Shown here piece by piece: positions 1,650 through 9,401 of a DNA stretch of 32,000 bases. A program made the position numbers and the translations under genes. Source of the stretch: a bacterium (lineage in GTDB: Bacteria; UBA10199; 2-02-FULL-44-16; JAAZCA01); the NCBI GenBank assembly GCA_041648665.1, contig JBAZOP010000024.1:1-32000 (forward strand), written 5' to 3'. The notes under the pieces were generated by a model, which worked only from the letters and a program-made list of their open reading frames with translations, made no database searches and was not told where the DNA came from. Position 1 is the stretch's first letter. Every line of letters begins with the position of its first letter.

Positions 1650-1892
1650 TCAGACGGTTCCCCAGTCCTCCGCCAGCACATCGGTCTGCGAGGCAAGCCA
1701 CGGCACGAGCATCCCCTGCGCGTCCTTCATCACGATGCACGGTCGCGCAATCATGCCGCTCGTCTCCGGGTGCGGAAGGCTCGGCGCAAAGCAGATGACG
1801 AGCCACATCCCCCTGCCGTTCCAGCCATCGCGCGCCACCTTCGCGCCCTCCTTCAACTGCATCAACGCCCATCCAAAATCACAAGGTCCCAT
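1650..1892 (-). CDS. DUF2829 family protein (Thoeris anti-defence Tad2-like), 80 aa
   Basis: MGPCDFGWALMQLKEGAKVARDGWNGRGMWL...PCIVMKDAQGMLVPWLASQTDVLAEDW matches the DUF2829 signature as I remember it (FG.A...lk.GkkvaR.GWng...; PWl.sq.DlLAeDW). The internal ATG at 1892 is preceded by GAAAGGAAA; the 31-aa upstream extension in the track looks non-coding. Confidence 0.75.
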   Translation of the reverse strand: MGPCDFGWALMQLKEGAKVARDGWNGRGMWLVICFAPSLPHPETSGMIARPCIVMKDAQGMLVPWLASQTDVLAEDWGTV

Positions 1893-2506: not shown

Positions 2507-2976
2507 GTGTGCCTCCTATATCGGTTTCCGCGAATCGCCCCAGCGGGTATCGAGAGCGTGTCTTCTACGCTCCACCCAAGGGCATTGAGCCGGCGCTGAG
2601 CCGTGTTGTAGGACAGTCCAAGGATCTCGCACGCCTCGCGCAGGCACACGATCCTTCCGCCCATGTCGATGTGCATGGTGTTTCGCTTGTTTCGCGCCTG
2701 CTCAAGCGATGTGGCCCACCTGCAGTTACCGGGCTCGTAGTTCCCGTCGTTGTCGATGCGATCGATTGAGTGCAGCGGGGATGGTTTCCTTCCCATGTCG
2801 GCAAGGAAGTTCTCGTAGCTGCGCCACCTGTCGCACACTCCGATCCCTCTTGCCCCATAGCACTTGTGCTTTGGGAAGTTCGGGTTTGTGCATCTGGACA
2901 GCATGACCGCCCACGTCCTGTATTCTGGGGTGGTTCTGCCGCCCACGGTGTCCCTGTGGGTGAAATGGCCTCTCAC
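2497..2976 (-). CDS. HNH/homing-endonuclease-like DNA-binding protein (159 aa)
   Basis: Motif string EYRTWAVMLSRC...YGARGIGVCDRW..FENFLADMGRKP...SIDRIDNDGNYEPGNCRWAT..EQARNKR is typical of phage proteins usually annotated as HNH endonuclease. The GTG start overlaps the upstream stop (GTGA at 2976..2973). Confidence 0.7.
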   Translation of the reverse strand: MRGHFTHRDTVGGRTTPEYRTWAVMLSRCTNPNFPKHKCYGARGIGVCDRWRSYENFLADMGRKPSPLHSIDRIDNDGNYEPGNCRWATSLEQARNKRNTMHIDMGGRIVCLREACEILGLSYNTAQRRLNALGWSVEDTLSIPAGAIRGNRYRRHTCA

Positions 2977-3932
2977 AGTGCCACCCCCCTTCCGCCGATT
3001 ATCAGCGAAACTTCATCCGTGGACCCGTCTTCCTTCACGGCCCACGCTGGCAGCTCCATTTGAAGTTCACTCGGCGCAACCCCGGGCCAGCAGCCCGACG
3101 CGCGACACTCGACAACGCGCGCCAGCCAACCGCGGTACAGGTCACGCCCCGCCGAGAGCACCTCGGTTGTCGCGGTGTACACGGCCACGTCGTAGGGCGC
3201 GGACTGCTCGACGTAGATCCAGCAGAACCCGTGCGGGCCGTGGCCCATCGCCTCCAGCCCGTCGCAGTAGAAGGCCGCCTGCGCGTGGTACGCAAGCGCG
3301 ACCAGGCCGCGTTGGACGGCCCGGGGCGAGATGTCGCGGGTGGTCTTGAGGTCCACCACATCCGCGGACGGCGCGATCCAGTCCGCGCGGCCCTTGCACA
3401 GAAGGCCGGTATCCCGATCCGTCCAGCGCAGGGTTTGCTCGGCCTTGCCCGACCGCAGGTAGCGGGACGCAACGGGATGGGCCTGGACCGCGGCGGCAAC
3501 GGCTTCGGCGGCTTCCCAGTCTTCGGGGGCGCGGATCAGTTCCTTGCCGACGTTGGCTGCGAGGAACGCTTCCCATTCCTTGCCCGCCCGCCGGCCACCG
3601 TCCCACACAACCCAGTGCGCGTCGATCGTGTCGGGCTCGAACACCATGGCGTGCATCAGCCTGCCTAGACGCATGCTGTCCGTATCGGGGCGGGGGCAGG
3701 ACAGGGCGTGCTGGTAGTGCCTGGGGCTGACGGCCATGGACTTGAGCGTCGAGATGTTGACGGCGTCGACCGAGTCGTACTCGGCACGGGTCAAGTCTTC
3801 GATCGCCGCAAGCACCCTGGACCTTGCGGGCTCGGCCACAAGCGCGGCCACGGCGCCCCGGTCCCGCACCGGATCGTCGGTGATGATGCCCGCTTCGGTG
3901 CAGGCGGCAACGGCGGCCTCACGCGGCGTCAT
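2973..3932 (-). CDS. PD-(D/E)XK exonuclease, RecE / exodeoxyribonuclease VIII-like domain (319 aa)
   Basis: Motifs GRADWI...VVDLKTTRD (D...D-x-K) and YHAQAAFYCDG (QxxxY) are present. The ATG at 3932 is preceded by GAGGAGGG and overlaps the upstream stop (ATGA). The 514-aa track ORF is an out-of-frame read-through extension. Confidence 0.8.
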   Translation of the reverse strand: MTPREAAVAACTEAGIITDDPVRDRGAVAALVAEPARSRVLAAIEDLTRAEYDSVDAVNISTLKSMAVSPRHYQHALSCPRPDTDSMRLGRLMHAMVFEPDTIDAHWVVWDGGRRAGKEWEAFLAANVGKELIRAPEDWEAAEAVAAAVQAHPVASRYLRSGKAEQTLRWTDRDTGLLCKGRADWIAPSADVVDLKTTRDISPRAVQRGLVALAYHAQAAFYCDGLEAMGHGPHGFCWIYVEQSAPYDVAVYTATTEVLSAGRDLYRGWLARVVECRASGCWPGVAPSELQMELPAWAVKEDGSTDEVSLIIGGRGVAL

Positions 3933-4576
3933 GGTGCCCTCCTCTTCGCAATTGCATCCTCGATGGCCTTCAGCGGAACGTGCTGAAGCACCAGTTCCGC
4001 GCAGCGCGCGAGCGCTTCGGCTCGCGCTGCGCTCCGCTGCGGAGAGCCGCGGGCGGCGGCGTAGGCGGCGTAGGCGGCGGCGCTGGCAGCGTTGGCGGCG
4101 GCGGCGGCGGCGTAGGCGGCGTAGGCGGCGGCGCTGGCAGCGTTGGCGGCGGCGTCGGCGGCGCTGGCGGCGTAGTAGGCGGCGCTGGCGGCGGCGCTGG
4201 CGGCGGCGTCGGCGGCGCTGGCGGCGTAGTAGGCGGCGGCGTTGGCGGCGGCGGCGGCCTTCCGCACATCTTCCGGCGCTACGCCGGCATCGCCGCGGCA
4301 CCATGCCTCCGCGGTTTCGATCGCCTTCAGGGGCCGCGTCTCGCCGGCCTTGACGTATTGGAGCGCGGTTCGCGCGCATTGGCACGCAGCGAACACAAGC
4401 ACCTTGCGATCGACACCCAGCCGACCCGCCAGCCACAAGATCCATTCGGCGCGCTTGCAGCCGTGGTAGGCGCAGCGCAGCGACTTGCGCCCCACCCATT
4501 CGCGGGCTTCGTGGCACGCGTGAACATCAATCAGCAGCGATCGAAACGATTGACCTTTGGTTACCTTGATTTTCAT
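3929..4576 (-). CDS. Alanine-repeat protein of unknown function (215 aa)
   Basis: Translationally coupled at both ends (ATGA at 4576..4573 and 3932..3929). It has a Cys/Trp-containing N-terminal domain (HACHEAREWVGRKS...RAEWILWLAG...ETRPLKAIETAEAWCRGD). A run follows of the type AAYYAASAADAAASAAASAAYYAASAADAAANAASAAAYAAYAAAAAANAASAAAYAAYAAA. Confidence 0.75.
   Translation of the reverse strand: MKIKVTKGQSFRSLLIDVHACHEAREWVGRKSLRCAYHGCKRAEWILWLAGRLGVDRKVLVFAACQCARTALQYVKAGETRPLKAIETAEAWCRGDAGVAPEDVRKAAAAANAAAYYAASAADAAASAAASAAYYAASAADAAANAASAAAYAAYAAAAAANAASAAAYAAYAAARGSPQRSAARAEALARCAELVLQHVPLKAIEDAIAKRRAP
4061..4250. repeat. Two tandem duplications inside the Ala-repeat gene (51-nt unit x2, then 54-nt unit x2)
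   Basis: Units starting at 4061 and 4112 are identical over their first 43 nt (gtaggcggcgtaggcggcggcgctggcagcgttggcggcggcg). Units starting at 4154 and 4208 are identical over their first 31 nt. All units are multiples of 3 and in frame. Confidence 0.9.
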
Positions 4577-5803: not shown

Positions 5804-6000
5804 TGAGCGACCTCCCCGGCCCCCTGGACCCTCACCGCGGCGGGTGCGCGGACGGTTGGACGTCGTGCAGCAACTGCCCGGTCATCCTGTGCGAGTACAA
5901 CACGCAGGGCGAGAACTACCGCAAGGGGCGGCGGAAGATGAAGCAGATCGAGCTTCCCATATCCGAATCTGGACAGGAGTCTCAACGTGACGGAGACTGA
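5803..6000 (+). CDS. Hypothetical small Cys-containing protein (65 aa)
   Basis: The GTG at 5803 overlaps the upstream TAG by 1 nt. Third codon positions are G/C-rich. It reads VSDLPGPLDPHRGGCADGWTSCSNCPVILCEYN... and overlaps the next gene by 14 nt. The start is uncertain. Confidence 0.45.
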   Translation: MSDLPGPLDPHRGGCADGWTSCSNCPVILCEYNTQGENYRKGRRKMKQIELPISESGQESQRDGD

Positions 6001-6322
6001 GATAAGCCGCACCGTGCTCGACGTGCTCAGGCTCGCGTTCCCCCCACCCGGTGCGTGGTGGCACCGGAACAACACGGGCAAGGTGAAGCGCAAGGGCGGC
6101 TGTTTCGTCGTGTACGGCCTTGGAAACGGAGGGCCGGACATCGTCGGCTGTGTCGATGGCCGATGGGTAGCCGTTGAGGTGAAGGTCCCCGGCAAGTGGC
6201 AGGAGCCTGACCAGCAGGCGTGGCAGGTGCAGCACGAACTATCCGGCGGCGTATACGTGCTGGCACACGACGCGAGGGAAGCGATTGATGGAGTCAAGCG
6301 AGGGCTGGAGGTGGCGGCGTGA
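5987..6322 (+). CDS. VRR-NUC domain nuclease (111 aa)
   Basis: GGPDIVGCVDGRWVAVEVKVPGKWQEPDQQAWQVQHELSGGVYVLAHDAREAI matches the VRR-NUC PD-(D/E)XK core (G.PD...iEvK...Q..w...GG). The GTG at 5987 is preceded by AGGAG. Confidence 0.8.
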   Translation: MTETEISRTVLDVLRLAFPPPGAWWHRNNTGKVKRKGGCFVVYGLGNGGPDIVGCVDGRWVAVEVKVPGKWQEPDQQAWQVQHELSGGVYVLAHDAREAIDGVKRGLEVAA

Positions 6323-6392: not shown

Positions 6393-7013
6393 ATGAGCAA
6401 GGCACAGACGCACCCAACGACGCTGGCAGGACCACAGAAGATCGCGATCACGCTTCGGGGTAGGCCCGGAAGTCTGCTCGTGGTCCACGCCTTCGCGGAG
6501 AAGGCCAAGAAAGAGATCCGCGACAAGCAACAGAAGAAAGCGAAGCAGGCCAAGGAGGAGCGCCGGCCCGCCGAGGAATGCGAGGCCGCGAAGTACATCG
6601 ACACGCAGGGGCGGGAGTGCATCCCGATCACGGCGATCAAGAAGTCGCTGATCAGCGCAGCGACCGCGTTCGACGACCTGACCAAGGTTGCCTTGCGGCA
6701 GGCGATCTTCGTGGCGGTTGCAGACGACCCCGCCGCGGCGCTCGTGCCCGTCGAGAAGCACGACGGTTCGCCCGCGGTTGGGACGATGCGCGAGGATGCC
6801 GTCACCATCGGCATGAACACGCGGGGGCTCGCATACCGACCCGAGTACCCCGAATGGCAGCTTCGCGTTGTGGTCGAGTACAACCCGCGGTTGGTCAGCG
6901 AGGAGCAGCTGCTTGCGCTCGTGGATCACGCGGGCTGGGGTGTTGGCCTGTGCGAGGGAAGACCGGAGCGTTCGAGTGCTCTGGGTTGGGGGCGATTTGA
7001 ACGTGTTGCCTGA
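6393..7013 (+). CDS. Conserved phage protein of unknown function with a Lys-rich N-terminal segment (206 aa)
   Basis: The ATG at 6393 is preceded by GGAGAA. It has a basic segment (AEKAKKEIRDKQQKKAKQAKEERR) and a C-terminus of the form ...PEWQLRVVVEYNPRLVSEEQLLALVDHAGWGVGLCEGRP...GWGRFERV. No family is confidently recognised. Confidence 0.75.
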   Translation: MSKAQTHPTTLAGPQKIAITLRGRPGSLLVVHAFAEKAKKEIRDKQQKKAKQAKEERRPAEECEAAKYIDTQGRECIPITAIKKSLISAATAFDDLTKVALRQAIFVAVADDPAAALVPVEKHDGSPAVGTMREDAVTIGMNTRGLAYRPEYPEWQLRVVVEYNPRLVSEEQLLALVDHAGWGVGLCEGRPERSSALGWGRFERVA

Positions 7014-7443
7014 CATGGCAGGAGAGGCACTCCCGGGCCTGGCCTGGTTCGGTCGGGCACGGCGTGGACTGGCGCGGCTAGGATTGGCAGGACCGGCCTG
7101 GTTTTGCGTGGCACGGACAGGCCGGGTAGGGCGCGGCAGGATTGGCGGGACGTGGCTCGCAGGGGCGCAGCACAGCATGGTGAGGCCGGGCTGGGCTGGG
7201 GCTGGCAGGCAGGGCAAAGCAGGGTTTGTTCCGGCGCGGCAAGGCTCGGTACGGATTTGCAGGCCGGGCGAGGCATACCGCACAGCGGTGGGGCATGCTC
7301 CGGAGCGGTCAGGCAAGGCAGGAATGGCACGGCAAGGCCCAGTGAGGACTGGTGCGGACGGGCGGGGCAGGAGAGGCGCGGCTGAGTCGGGTCGGGAATG
7401 GCCGTGTGCAACACGGCTTGGCAGGAATGGATAGGAGGGTAGC
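7014..7443 (+). repeat. Non-coding G-skewed array with GG phased every 5 nt and seven GGCAGG(A) words
   Basis: Hand indexing gives about 72 GG steps with spacings of 5, 10 or 15 nt, except 4 nt at each GGCAGG (7017, 7086, 7135, 7204, 7317, 7366, 7420). For example, 7036-7090 reads ggcct ggcct ggttc ggtcg ggcac ggcgt ggact ggcgc ggcta ggatt ggcag. G greatly exceeds C on the plus strand. The array is bounded exactly by the upstream stop and the downstream SD. Confidence 0.85.
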
Positions 7444-8403
7444 GTGACCTGGAGCAAGATGTCGGACGATTGGCCGGACCACCCCAAGGTCCTGATGTGC
7501 TCGGACCCCGCCGTGGCGCTCTGGCTCCGGTCCATCGCGTACGCCAACCGGCACCTGACAGACGGGTTTGTGCCCGAGTCAATGCTGCCCAAGCTGTCAT
7601 CTCACCGACACGTTCGGAGCATTGTCAGGGAGCTTGTCGAGTGCATTCCACCGACATACTCGCGGGGTCTGTGGGAGCCGGTCGAGGGCGGGTGGATGAT
7701 CCATGGCTTCCTCGATTACTCCCCGTCAAGACAAGAGGTTATGGCCCGGCGCGCAGCGGACGCAGAACGCCAGTCACGGCATCGGTCACAGTGTGAGTCA
7801 CGGCCAGTGTCACAGCGTGACAACACGCGTGAGTCACACAGTGACAAACGCATGTGTCACACCCCTCCCGTCCCGACCCGGCCCCATACAGATCCAGAGA
7901 TCCCCCCTACCCCCCTTGCTTCGCAAGAGGGGAACGCAGACGGATCGCGCAAGCGCTCACGGACCGGACCCCGGACCATCCGGACCCTGCTGCCCCGGGA
8001 GTGGACCCCGACGCTGGAGCACTTCGAGCAGGCCAAGACAGAGGGAGGCCGGAACGCCGGTTGGGTGCAGGACCAGGCGGAACGGATGCGAGACTACGCC
8101 GCGGGCAAGGGCTGGCGCATGGCCGACTGGGACGCCACGTTCCGGAACTGGATCCGCAAGGCCCTGGATTCGAGGCCGTCGCTTGTCGCCTCCGCAGAAC
8201 CCGACCCATCCCTCGAAGCCGCCCGCCGCATTGCGCAGACCAACGCCCTGACCCGGGACCGCATCCGGCACGTTCCGAGGCCGGTGCACGTCGAACGGGA
8301 GGCGCCCGTGTCGGAGCAGCCAACAGACCTCACGCCCGCTGAGCAAGCAGAACAGGCCCGGGCAGCGCGCGCGCTCGTGGCCGGGATTGGGAGGGCGATA
8401 TGA
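7444..8403 (+). CDS. Replication initiator / replisome-organiser-like protein (319 aa)
   Basis: The GTG at 7444 is preceded by GGAGGG. The N-terminal segment (WSKMSDDWPDHPKVLMCSDPAVALWLRSIAYANRHLTDGFVP) and the C-terminal segment (LPREWTPTLEHFEQAK...RMRDYAAGKGWRMADWDATFRNWIRKA) resemble phage replication protein N- and C-terminal domains. A Pro-rich linker and an internal iteron cluster separate them. Confidence 0.65.
   Translation: MTWSKMSDDWPDHPKVLMCSDPAVALWLRSIAYANRHLTDGFVPESMLPKLSSHRHVRSIVRELVECIPPTYSRGLWEPVEGGWMIHGFLDYSPSRQEVMARRAADAERQSRHRSQCESRPVSQRDNTRESHSDKRMCHTPPVPTRPHTDPEIPPTPLASQEGNADGSRKRSRTGPRTIRTLLPREWTPTLEHFEQAKTEGGRNAGWVQDQAERMRDYAAGKGWRMADWDATFRNWIRKALDSRPSLVASAEPDPSLEAARRIAQTNALTRDRIRHVPRPVHVEREAPVSEQPTDLTPAEQAEQARAARALVAGIGRAI
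7771..7861. promoter_or_regulatory. Candidate origin iterons inside the initiator gene (four ~24-bp units with GTCAC cores)
   Basis: GTCAC at 7773, 7785, 7797 and 7809 (exactly 12 bp apart), and at 7833 and 7856; GTGAC at 7817 and 7841. Palindromes are TGTCACAGCGTGACA (7808-7822) and GTCACACAGTGAC (7833-7845). The units start at 7771, 7795, 7819 and 7843. Confidence 0.5.
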
Positions 8404-8791: not shown

Positions 8792-9033
8792 CCCACGACC
8801 GCCGCGCCTACCAGCGCGCCGTGCACATCGCCCTGTCCTGCGTTCCCCTGCCCGAGGCCGCTGCAGACGAGGTGGCACGGGCACAGGGACTGCTGATGCG
8901 CAACACCGGCTACGACCTCGACGATGCCCGGGAGGCACTGCTGCGGGCCGCGACGCTGATACCGGCGAAGTGGTCGGACGCGATGATGGCCGAGGTGATT
9001 GTTGAACACGAACACAGGAGACTGAACCAATGA
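8788..9033 (+). CDS. Small protein with an ANTAR-like (RNA-binding antiterminator) segment (81 aa)
   Basis: The ATG at 8788 has an ATGA overlap and is preceded by GGAAGGAA. VARAQGLLMRNTGYDLDDAREALLRAA...MAEVIV parallels the ANTAR core (I..AKGiLM...g.se.eAy..Lr..A......vAe.i.). Coding status is confident; the domain call is tentative. Confidence 0.5.
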   Translation: MTHDRRAYQRAVHIALSCVPLPEAAADEVARAQGLLMRNTGYDLDDAREALLRAATLIPAKWSDAMMAEVIVEHEHRRLNQ

Positions 9034-9401
9034 ACGACACAACGATTGAAGCATGTGCAAGAGCGGCTCACGAAGCGAACAGGGCATGGTGCCTTGCCCA
9101 TGGCGACACGTCACAACCCCCGTGGGAGCAAGCGCCGGATTGGCAGAAGTCCAGCGCCATGAACGGCGTGCAGGGCGTTCTGAACGGCAACACGCCTGAA
9201 CAGTCGCACGAGTCGTGGCTTGCAGAGAAGGCCGCAGCTGGGTGGAAGCACGGGCCGACGAAGGACCCGGACAAGAAAGAACACCCGTGCTTCGTGTCGT
9301 ATGCTGAGCTTCCCCCCGAACAGCGAGCGAAGGATCATATTTTTGTGACCGTGGTTCGGGCGATGGTGGATGCGTTCTTTCCTAAGAAGGCGCATGGGTG
9401 A
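9030..9401 (+). CDS. RyR (ryanodine-receptor-type) domain protein (123 aa)
   Basis: AAHEANRAW...SHESWLAEKAAAGWKHGPTKDPDKKEHPCFVSYAELPPEQRAKDHIFV matches the bacterial/phage RyR domain pattern (HE.W....GW.yGp..d...k.HP.lvpY.eLp...k..D). Confidence 0.8.
   Translation: MNDTTIEACARAAHEANRAWCLAHGDTSQPPWEQAPDWQKSSAMNGVQGVLNGNTPEQSHESWLAEKAAAGWKHGPTKDPDKKEHPCFVSYAELPPEQRAKDHIFVTVVRAMVDAFFPKKAHG

What the first reader, a model, noticed from the sequence alone, without database searches (positions are those of the whole stretch)
7014..7443. 430-bp non-coding G-skewed array: GG phased every 5 nt (~70 steps), punctuated by seven GGCAGG words, abutting the replication initiator gene
Seen directly: between the TGA at 7011-7013 and the SD/GTG of the initiator gene (7434-7446), the plus strand is G-rich and C-poor, and GG dinucleotides sit on a 5-nt lattice. 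For example, 7036-7090 reads ggcct|ggcct|ggttc|ggtcg|ggcac|ggcgt|ggact|ggcgc|ggcta|ggatt|ggcag. My hand count gives about 72 GG steps. Successive spacings are 5 nt, or 10/15 nt where a step is missing. The exception is a 4-nt step at each GGCAGG word (7017, 7086, 7135, 7204, 7317, 7366, 7420), which shifts the lattice phase by -1 each time. Longer degenerate units also recur: GGCCTGGTT-N6-GGCACGG at 7041 and 7095, and AGGCCGGG at 7119, 7183 and 7261. A 5-nt period is incompatible with codon structure, so the ORFs the track shows here are composition artefacts. I know of no described phage element with this architecture. The following hypotheses are inference only. (a) The G-rich transcript or non-template strand forms R-loops or stacked two-tetrad (G2N3)n quadruplexes that prime or license the neighbouring origin, comparable to the G-run of ColE1 RNA II or pentameric immunoglobulin switch repeats. 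(b) It is a registry track for an oligomeric RNA- or ssDNA-binding protein that reads one GG(C) triplet plus a 2-nt spacer per subunit, as TRAP reads (G/U)AG triplets with 2-3 nt spacers. (c) It is a C-poor, hence Rho-resistant, long untranslated spacer inside an operon. (d) It is a CAGGA-rich protein-sponge RNA.
Basis: partly seen in the sequence, partly recalled or inferred. Interest (0 to 1): 0.85.

Follow-up and report, generated by a model that had tools for sequence, protein, structure and literature searches.

The report
VIPR guide-RNA array beside its vipr gene
The strange 430-base stretch with GG every five bases is real and non-coding, and it is the guide-RNA array of a VIPR system, a phage-borne RNA-guided DNA-silencing system first described in 2026 preprints; its partner is the 206-residue protein encoded just upstream, not the replication initiator downstream.

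Summary
Positions 7014-7443 carry a strict N-G-G-H-N pentamer lattice of 86 units, 70 of them with GG. Autocorrelation at lag 5 has z of about 9-10, there is no period-3 signal, and the feature is unique in the window. Eight one-base phase slips occur at GGC|AGG words, 49-69 nt apart.

The element is not tied to the replication initiator. A pattern scan found the same lattice in at least 120 viral contigs. In 54 of them it sits next to one protein family, which includes the window's upstream gene (6393-7013). Starting from that protein alone, 42 of 46 viral loci have an array beside it.

A profile of the family hits PDB 36pp, 'SUSP1 Vipr protein' (E=7e-6). The AlphaFold model matches Cas7-type RAMPs. 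Two 2026 bioRxiv papers describe this system as VIPR. Vipr protomers polymerise on vrRNAs made of 9-16 GGY/NN repeats. The NN dinucleotides pair with dsDNA, skipping every third target base, and silence competing phages. The slips match the papers' 'staggered arrays'.

The window has seven vrRNAs of 10-14 repeats. I found no target above chance.

Verdict: a new, unannotated member of a recently described kind.

The parts
6393..7013 (+). vipr gene: 206-aa Vipr (RAMP-fold) protein, the partner of the array
   Evidence: phrog_4652, unknown function. A profile of 40 homologues hits PDB 36pp_D 'SUSP1 Vipr protein' at E=7.3e-6, residues 83-192 against 73-181. Pairwise BLASTP against phiSUSP1 Vipr gives E=5e-8. 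The AF2 model has pLDDT 81 and pTM 0.77. Its top 50 Foldseek PDB hits are almost all Cas7-type RAMPs (Csm3, Cas7-11, type VII, Cmr6, Cascade Cas7; one row is a Cas5-HNH Cascade chain), with TM about 0.5. The family lies next to a GG lattice in 54 pattern-found loci and in 42 of 46 protein-found loci.
7014..7443 (+). Staggered vrRNA array: 86 N-GG-H-N pentamers, G-rich on the sense strand, non-coding
7020..7088 (+). predicted vrRNA 1, 14 repeats; NN code GA AC CG CT CT TC CG AC GT CT GC TA TT
   Evidence: HMM parse between 4-nt steps
7089..7137 (+). predicted vrRNA 2, 10 repeats; NN code CC CT TT GT AC CA CG AG GC
7138..7206 (+). predicted vrRNA 3, 14 repeats, several of them degenerate
7207..7260 (+). 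predicted vrRNA 4, 11 repeats
7261..7319 (+). predicted vrRNA 5, 12 repeats, three of them degenerate
7320..7368 (+). predicted vrRNA 6, 10 repeats; NN code AT AC AA CC GA CT GC CG GG
7369..7422 (+). predicted vrRNA 7, 11 repeats
7423..7443 (+). Truncated last block (AGGAA TGGAT AGGAGGG) that merges into the Shine-Dalgarno sequence of the next gene
7444..8403 (+). Replication initiation protein gene: a neighbour, not part of the system
   Evidence: phrog_2447. Its closest relative (66% identity, L001) has no array upstream. It is not a conserved neighbour of vipr in 18 close loci.

Best explanation
Positions 6393-7443 are a minimal VIPR (Viral Interference Programmable Repeat) locus. It consists of a vipr gene followed directly by a 'staggered' array of seven vrRNAs plus a stub.

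By homology with the characterised SUSP1 and P. fulva systems, the G-rich sense transcript is coated by Vipr protomers, one per pentamer. Each protomer pair flips out and holds a GGY triplet and presents the two variable bases. The 9-13 NN dinucleotides of one vrRNA pair with a double-stranded DNA target read as NNxNNx..., skipping one target base per repeat. The filament then blocks transcription of the target, typically a competing phage, satellite or prophage.

The GGC|A|GG words, where only one base separates two GG(Y) motifs, mark where one guide ends and the next begins.

Shown here: the lattice, its non-coding nature, the near-obligate linkage to the protein family, the homology of that family to Vipr, its RAMP fold, and the class-wide boundary word and guide length. 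Inferred from the papers: RNA expression and processing, filament assembly, the 1-nt-skip pairing and silencing. Unknown: what this phage's guides target.
For: Lattice statistics.

The same lattice occurs in at least 120 viral contigs with locus GC of 30-71%. Pooled over 164 arrays and 7,972 units, position 2 is G in 93%, position 3 is G in 90%, and position 4 is Y in 91% with G at 0%; the flanking positions vary.

Class-level non-coding test: 54 of 65 arrays of at least 300 nt have stops in all three sense frames.

Linkage: one protein family lies next to the array in 54 pattern-found loci, on the G-rich strand in 51 of them, and it includes the window's gene. In the reciprocal test, 42 of 46 loci found through the protein alone have an array beside the gene.

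Homology: PDB 36pp 'SUSP1 Vipr protein' at E=7.3e-6. The thumb Arg is kept (SUSP1 R138 = invariant R149 in a YRP motif), as are G-loop D177->E188 and R179->R190, and clamp K88->K98. The fold matches Cas7-type RAMPs.

Positive control: my period-5 statistic picks out one upstream and three downstream vrRNAs in phiSUSP1, as published.

Boundary word: 599 4-nt steps have consensus N-GGC-A-GGY and are spaced mostly 9-12 units apart. This matches the paper's 9-16 repeats per vrRNA and its 'staggered arrays ... 1 nt overlapping positions'.

Pairs of loci with 99.6-100% identical vipr genes have arrays only about 74-80% identical. NN positions are less conserved than GGY positions, for example 0.31 against 0.79.

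The RNA folds no better than shuffles, z=-0.33, as expected for a protein-coated linear guide.
Against: No target was found. Exact 1-nt-skip patterns for guides 1, 2 and 6 gave either nothing or matches whose flanking NN agree only at chance level. My local scan could not reproduce the skip rule independently.

The window's array is more degenerate than the class: GG occupancy is 82-88% against 90-93%, and A rather than Y follows GG in 6 of the 8 repeats that follow a boundary. Some guides may therefore be decayed.

SUSP1 G-loop W178 aligns with Gly in this family, and the G-loop carries a 6-residue insertion, so GGY recognition may differ in detail.

There is no vap accessory gene, no 3' tail or pseudoknot, and no recognisable promoter or terminator. 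According to the paper, staggered arrays were not among the architectures confirmed by sRNA-seq.
Confidence: 0.9

Rival explanations
1. G-rich R-loop or two-tetrad G-quadruplex element that primes or licenses the origin served by the downstream initiator.
For: The array abuts the initiator gene and has strong G skew. (GGN3)n can in principle form two-tetrad G4 structures (established chemistry; not tested here).
Against: The nearest initiator relative lacks the array. The array co-varies with vipr across unrelated phage backbones. Position 4 excludes G and the NN positions turn over freely, which G4 or R-loop formation does not require. The slip word and the 9-12-unit guide length have no role in this model.
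Confidence: 0.02
2. A real gene: the 139-codon ORF from ATG 7015 to TAG 7434, encoding a Gly/Arg/Ala-rich protein.
For: The ORF fills the gap exactly. In Gordonia phage UmaThurman an equivalent array is annotated as CDS gp40.
Against: Codon-position GC is flat. An open frame arises in 37% of unit shuffles. There is no period-3 signal. The 5-nt register with -1 slips ignores the reading frame. 54 of 65 sister arrays have stops in every sense frame. Public gene calls leave it empty. It has no Pfam or PHROG hit.
Confidence: 0.01
3. CsrA/Rsm-type protein-sponge RNA built on CAGGA words.
For: There are six CAGGA words in 430 nt, which resembles the CAGGAxG repeats of CsrB (from memory).
Against: Across 599 boundaries the consensus is GGC-A-GGY, with A at the position after GG in only about 9%, so GGA is a local quirk. 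The words lie exactly at the lattice slips. The linked protein is a RAMP, not CsrA.
Confidence: 0.02
4. Decaying or inactive VIPR remnant: homologous to a vrRNA array but no longer functional.
For: 16 of 86 units lack GG. Guides 3, 5 and 7 each contain three or more degenerate repeats. No targets were found.
Against: The vipr gene is intact and 72-84% identical to hundreds of homologues. [quoted passage not shown] Guides 1, 2 and 6 are nearly intact.
Confidence: 0.1

Closest known systems
VIPR systems (Vipr protein plus GGY/NN vrRNAs; bioRxiv 10.64898/2026.04.26.720920 and 10.64898/2026.04.26.720927), reference locus Escherichia phage phiSUSP1
   Same: A RAMP-fold protein of about 200 aa that is homologous to SUSP1 Vipr. 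Pentamer GGY/NN repeats, 10-14 per guide. The array lies in the intergenic DNA flanking vipr on the sense strand. The locus is phage-borne. NN positions are variable and GGY positions are conserved.
   Different: The array is continuous and 'staggered', with guides delimited only by GGC|A|GG. It lacks the conserved leader and the 3' tail/pseudoknot that separate SUSP1 vrRNAs. There is no vap gene. GGC predominates over GGT, and GGA follows the boundaries. G-loop Trp178 is not conserved and the loop has a 6-residue insertion. The type (I-VII) could not be assigned because the paper's supplementary data are not held.
CRISPR class 1 Cas7 backbone on crRNA (Csm3/Cmr4/Cas7)
   Same: The same fold. 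According to the papers, the same logic applies: a RAMP filament on a guide RNA, with thumbs that periodically flip bases out.
   Different: There are no CRISPR repeats or spacers, no cas1/cas2 and no other cas genes. The guide information is non-contiguous (2 of every 5 bases) rather than a continuous spacer with every 6th base flipped.
TRAP with (G/U)AG-N2-3 repeats in the trp leader
   Same: An oligomeric protein reads a short G-containing triplet at roughly 5-nt spacing, about 11 repeats per assembly.
   Different: TRAP is an unrelated fold forming a closed ring. Its spacers carry no information, and it performs RNA attenuation rather than DNA targeting. This is an analogy only.

Membership tests
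VIPR | A Vipr protein: a small single-RRM RAMP homologue with a thumb and a glycine-rich loop | tested here: met
   Profile hit to PDB 36pp SUSP1 Vipr, E=7.3e-6. BLASTP against phiSUSP1 Vipr, E=5e-8. The AF2 model matches Cas7-type RAMPs. A C-terminal Gly-rich loop, GWGVGxCEGRPE...GWGRF, is invariant in the family.
VIPR | Residues that hold the GGY motif (SUSP1 H17, R138, D177, W178, R179) | tested here: inconclusive
   R138->R149, D177->E188 and R179->R190 are conserved, but W178 aligns with G189. H17 lies outside the aligned stretch; an invariant H32 exists in the first strand.
VIPR | vrRNA made of tandem YNNGG (GGY/NN) pentamers next to vipr | tested here: met
   86 units, 70 with GG, 53 with GGY and 69 with GGH, starting 1 nt after the vipr stop codon.
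VIPR | 9-16 repeats per vrRNA | tested here: met
   Seven blocks of 10-14 units between boundaries. The class-wide spacing peaks at 9-12 units.
VIPR | GGY conserved and NN hypervariable between related systems | tested here: met
   In pairs with 88-100% identical vipr genes, NN identity is lower than GGY identity: 0.31 against 0.79, 0.70-0.77 against 0.89-0.92. The pooled PWM agrees. No near-identical relative of the window itself was available.
VIPR | Staggered array architecture (adjacent vrRNAs overlapping by 1 nt) | tested here: met
   Eight 4-nt steps at GGC|AGG. The same word occurs at 599 boundaries in 164 arrays. The match to fig. S18 rests on its legend only, because the figure is not held.
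VIPR | vrRNAs are expressed, processed and bound by Vipr | not testable with these tools
   This needs sRNA-seq and a pull-down.
VIPR | NN code matches natural DNA targets under the 1-nt skip rule, with no self-targeting | tested here: inconclusive
   No self-target in the window. Guides 1, 2 and 6 gave no match above chance in IMG/VR, nor did guide 1 in JGI metagenomes. Mismatch-tolerant searches of large databases were not possible.
VIPR | A vap accessory gene (typical but not universal) | tested here: not met
   No gene other than vipr is conserved around 18 close relatives. The ~160-aa family seen next to other arrays is absent from the window. The paper says loci 'typically' have a vap, so this is not disqualifying.
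CRISPR-Cas | Repeat-spacer array and cas1/cas2 or other cas genes | tested here: not met
   No direct-repeat array and no cas-like neighbours.

The most novel reading that the evidence does not exclude
This clade is vap-less, has no tail, and shows the G-loop Trp->Gly change plus an insertion. It may represent a distinct and experimentally uncharacterised way of making and measuring guides. In this reading the single-base GGC|A|GG junction alone terminates one Vipr filament and starts the next, or directs cleavage. Guide length of 9-12 protomers would then be set by a 1-nt deletion in the lattice, rather than by a structured tail, ribozyme or leader.
Probability: 0.35. Interest if true: 0.55.

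Novelty: new member of a known kind. Interest (0 to 1): 0.4.

Why it matters
VIPR is a very recently described, minimal RNA-guided DNA-recognition system, proposed to pre-date CRISPR. This locus is an unannotated example in an uncultured phage. Every public copy of the protein is labelled 'hypothetical', it has no Pfam family, and the array is left uncalled.

The work gives three practical results.

- A simple period-5 G-lattice statistic, or the pattern (GGHNN)7GGH, finds VIPR arrays directly from DNA. More than 120 viral contigs were found this way.
- The boundary word of staggered arrays is defined quantitatively: N-GGC-A-GGY, every 9-12 repeats.
- Such arrays are sometimes mis-annotated as genes, for example gp40 of Gordonia phage UmaThurman.

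The work adds no new mechanism.

Tried and rejected
- Global Fourier analysis at period 5 gave a weak signal because of the phase slips. Autocorrelation was the right test.
- Tandem Repeats Finder found nothing, Rfam found nothing at E<=1, and blastn of the locus against GenBank phages found nothing.
- Pfam, NCBIfam and PADLOC gave nothing for the 206-aa protein.
- The initiator's relatives were checked for arrays, and the closest one lacks it. The origin link was dropped.
- The coding hypothesis for ORF 7015-7434 was rejected.
- RNA secondary structure is no more stable than in shuffles.
- Sigma-70 promoter and intrinsic-terminator scans found none.
- Target searches used the 1-nt skip rule:
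  - Local loci gave nothing.
  - IMG/VR scans for guides 1, 2 and 6 gave six chance-level hits for guide 1 and none for guides 2 and 6.
  - A JGI metagenome scan for guide 1 gave seven hits. The best, L179 at 22/26, is compatible with chance after selecting on an 18-base core.
- An attempt to reproduce the skip rule with 338 guides against 1.5 Mb of fetched loci was dominated by microsatellite artefacts.
- The ~160-aa neighbour family shows no sequence similarity to SUSP1 vap1 and has no Pfam hit.
- The paper's supplementary tables are not held, so the VIPR type could not be assigned.

Full report
**1. Observation**

The stretch 7014-7443 lies between the TGA of the upstream gene (7011-7013) and the GGAGGG/GTG of the next gene (7434-7446). 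Its composition is G198 C103 A71 T58.

I compared the autocorrelation of G, GG and GGC with 1000 dinucleotide-preserving shuffles.
- At lag 5, z is 9.2-10.7.
- At lags 10, 15, 20, 25 and 30, z is 3.5-7.5, and no shuffle reaches the observed value.
- Lag 3 is depleted.
- The signal leaks progressively into lags 4, 9, 14, ... 29, as occasional -1 slips predict.

A single Fourier term at period 5 is weak (z 1.1-1.7), because those slips scramble the global phase.

A cyclic HMM parse gives 86 units of the form N-G-G-H-N.
- Position 2 is G in 82% of units and position 3 is G in 88%.
- Position 4 is C in 60% and G in 2%.
- Positions 1 and 5 are near random.
- 70 units carry GG.
- There are eight 4-nt steps, at 7016, 7085, 7134, 7203, 7257, 7316, 7365 and 7419. 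All read xGGC|AGG except the one at 7257, which is a degenerate TTGC|AGG. They are spaced 49-69 nt apart.

A sliding period-5 score is about 9 SD above the window mean only here.

**2. Coding or not**

An ORF from ATG 7015 to TAG 7434 fills the gap exactly, so I tested it.
- Its codon-position GC is flat (0.72/0.72/0.66). The flanking genes show 0.67/0.47/0.80.
- An open frame appears in 37% of shuffles that merely permute the pentamers.
- The gene calls on record for the two public copies of this contig list no gene there.
- Among sister arrays of at least 300 nt, 54 of 65 have stops in all three sense frames.

The region is non-coding.

**3. What it travels with**

The downstream gene is a replication initiator (phrog_2447). 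However, its closest relative (66% identity) has an ordinary 121-nt upstream region.

I then scanned IMG/VR for eight consecutive GGH-NN units. These arrays are 170-1680 nt long, in contigs of 30-71% GC. To the eye they look the same, including the recurrent GGCAGG words. The G-rich strand is usually the sense strand of the flanking genes: 91 against 23 for the upstream gene.

All-against-all BLASTP of the flanking ORFs gave one dominant family with a median length of 218 aa. It is present in 54 loci, lies on the G-rich strand in 51 of them, and usually ends where the array begins. It includes the window's gene 6393-7013.

The reciprocal test started from that protein alone. It retrieved 46 viral loci, and 42 of them carry a G-lattice array beside the gene. 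Most sit directly downstream, four sit upstream, and one subgroup has the array about 420 nt downstream.

In 18 close relatives (69-78% protein identity) nothing else around the gene is conserved. The unit is therefore protein plus array, and the initiator is an incidental neighbour.

**4. Identity**

The protein has no Pfam, NCBIfam or PADLOC match and belongs to PHROG 4652, 'unknown function'. It has 903 homologues in the metagenomic protein collection. The 120 listed carry no Pfam domain and are named, if at all, only 'hypothetical protein'; they are 72-84% identical to the query.

A profile of 40 of them hits one PDB sequence, 36pp 'SUSP1 Vipr protein', at E=7.3e-6 over residues 83-192. 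Pairwise BLASTP against the phiSUSP1 gene product gives E=5e-8.

The AlphaFold model has pLDDT 81 and pTM 0.77. Its best Foldseek matches in the PDB are almost all Cas7-type RAMPs (Csm3, Cas7-11, type VII Cas7, Cmr6, Cascade Cas7), with TM about 0.5.

**5. The literature**

A literature search on 'Vipr' found two bioRxiv papers from April-June 2026.
- VIPR systems pair a roughly 20-kDa ancestral RAMP, Vipr, with vrRNAs made of 9-16 YNNGG repeats.
- One protomer binds per repeat and forms a helical filament.
- The GGY bases are flipped out and held by the thumb and the G-loop.
- The NN bases pair with dsDNA that is read as NNx (the '1-nt skip rule'), forming an R-loop triplex that silences transcription.
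- Natural targets are satellites, prophages and other VIPRs.
- Seven types are described. [quoted passage not shown]

**6. Testing the defining features here**

- **Residues.** SUSP1 R138 (thumb), D177 and R179 (G-loop) and K88 (non-target-strand clamp) align with R149, E188, R190 and K98. R149, E188 and K98 are invariant in the 40-sequence alignment and R190 is nearly so. W178 aligns with Gly, and the loop has a 6-residue insertion.
- **Repeat motif, pooled.** Over 164 arrays and 7,972 units, position 2 is G in 93%, position 3 is G in 90%, and position 4 is Y in 91% and never G. The two flanking positions are variable.
- **Boundaries.** 599 4-nt steps have the consensus N-GGC-A-GGY. They are spaced mostly 9-12 units apart, with most of the rest at 8-16. 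This matches the published guide length and the staggered architecture.
- **The window's guides.** The window contains seven such guides of 10-14 repeats, plus a stub that runs into the next gene's Shine-Dalgarno sequence.
- **Hypervariability.** Loci whose vipr genes are 99.6-100% identical have arrays that are only about 74-80% identical in several pairs. NN positions are always less conserved than GGY positions. In a pair with 89% identical vipr genes the values are 0.31 against 0.79.
- **Positive control.** On the reference phiSUSP1 locus, my statistic picks out one upstream and three downstream repeat tracts, as published. Unlike the window, those tracts are separated by a conserved leader and a tail.
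- **RNA folding.** The window's RNA folds no better than shuffles (z=-0.33).
- **Accessory gene.** No vap gene is present.

**7. Targets**

I derived each guide's NNx pattern.
- There is no self-target in the window.
- Exact scans of IMG/VR for guides 2 and 6 (18 specified bases each) found nothing.
- A 16-base core of guide 1 gave six hits in IMG/VR, and an 18-base core gave seven hits in JGI metagenomes. In all of these the remaining NN positions agree at chance level. The best is 22/26, which is not significant after selecting on the core.
- A scan of 338 guides against the fetched loci was dominated by microsatellite artefacts. It neither confirmed nor contradicted the skip rule.

What this phage targets remains unknown.

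**8. Verdict**

The origin/R-loop, Rho-resistance and sponge ideas are not supported.

The element belongs to a kind described only months ago. This particular locus is probably outside the published set of 664 loci, because the NCBI copy of the contig is 10.3 kb and that study discarded contigs under 20 kb.

It is a new member of a known kind. It has local peculiarities: no tail, no vap, GGA after the boundaries and a variant G-loop. These touch the least characterised (staggered) architecture.

Noticed in passing
L186 3071-3394 (Gordonia phage UmaThurman NC_031249.1, 33362-33685): The annotated CDS gp40 ('hypothetical protein') is really a staggered GGY/NN array. It lies directly after gp39, a homologue of the window's Vipr (32% identity), and begins TGACATGGCAGG exactly as in the window. 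W-like Vipr genes also occur in Gordonia phages ODay, Ecliptus and Pipp, Pseudomonas phage LESphi2 and Cyanophage Cy-LDV1.
   Followed up: partly
window 1650-1862 (-): This small gene carries a precomputed PF11195 Tad2-like hit (the anti-Thoeris sponge family). It may be a second counter-defence or conflict gene on the same phage.
   Followed up: no
window 2973-4517 (-), 5987-6322 (+), 9030-9401 (+): RecE-like exonuclease VIII (phrog_412, DUF3799), a VRR-NUC-like endonuclease (phrog_93) directly upstream of vipr, and a RyR-domain protein. The nuclease is not a conserved neighbour of vipr in relatives, so it is probably not a vap.
   Followed up: partly
L023, L029, L049, L053, L062, L069, L097 and 11 other loci: A second family of about 160 aa sits between vipr and the array, or just after it, in 18 loci. 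It is probably a vap. It has no Pfam hit and no sequence similarity to SUSP1 vap1.
   Followed up: partly
L008 3891-4650; L016 8241-8740; L185 2036-2200 and 3316-3760: Other VIPR arrays have repeat tracts separated by conserved spacers: a hairpin-like 'gggtagcgtgctacccc...ccagtgc' in L008, and a 'TAAGAGGGT' leader shared by L016 and phiSUSP1. This contrasts with the spacer-free window array.
   Followed up: no
L017, L121, L045: The GGH-NN pattern scan also catches true microsatellites, such as (GGYAT)n. These are not VIPR arrays and they produce spurious 'targets' in skip-rule scans.
   Followed up: yes
L179 639-676 (-) (JGI Ga0214472_10083436): This is the best candidate target for guide 1, with 22 of 26 NN bases under the 1-nt skip rule, in frame with an ORF (…ELLSRTVLAY…). 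It is statistically compatible with chance after selecting on the core.
   Followed up: partly
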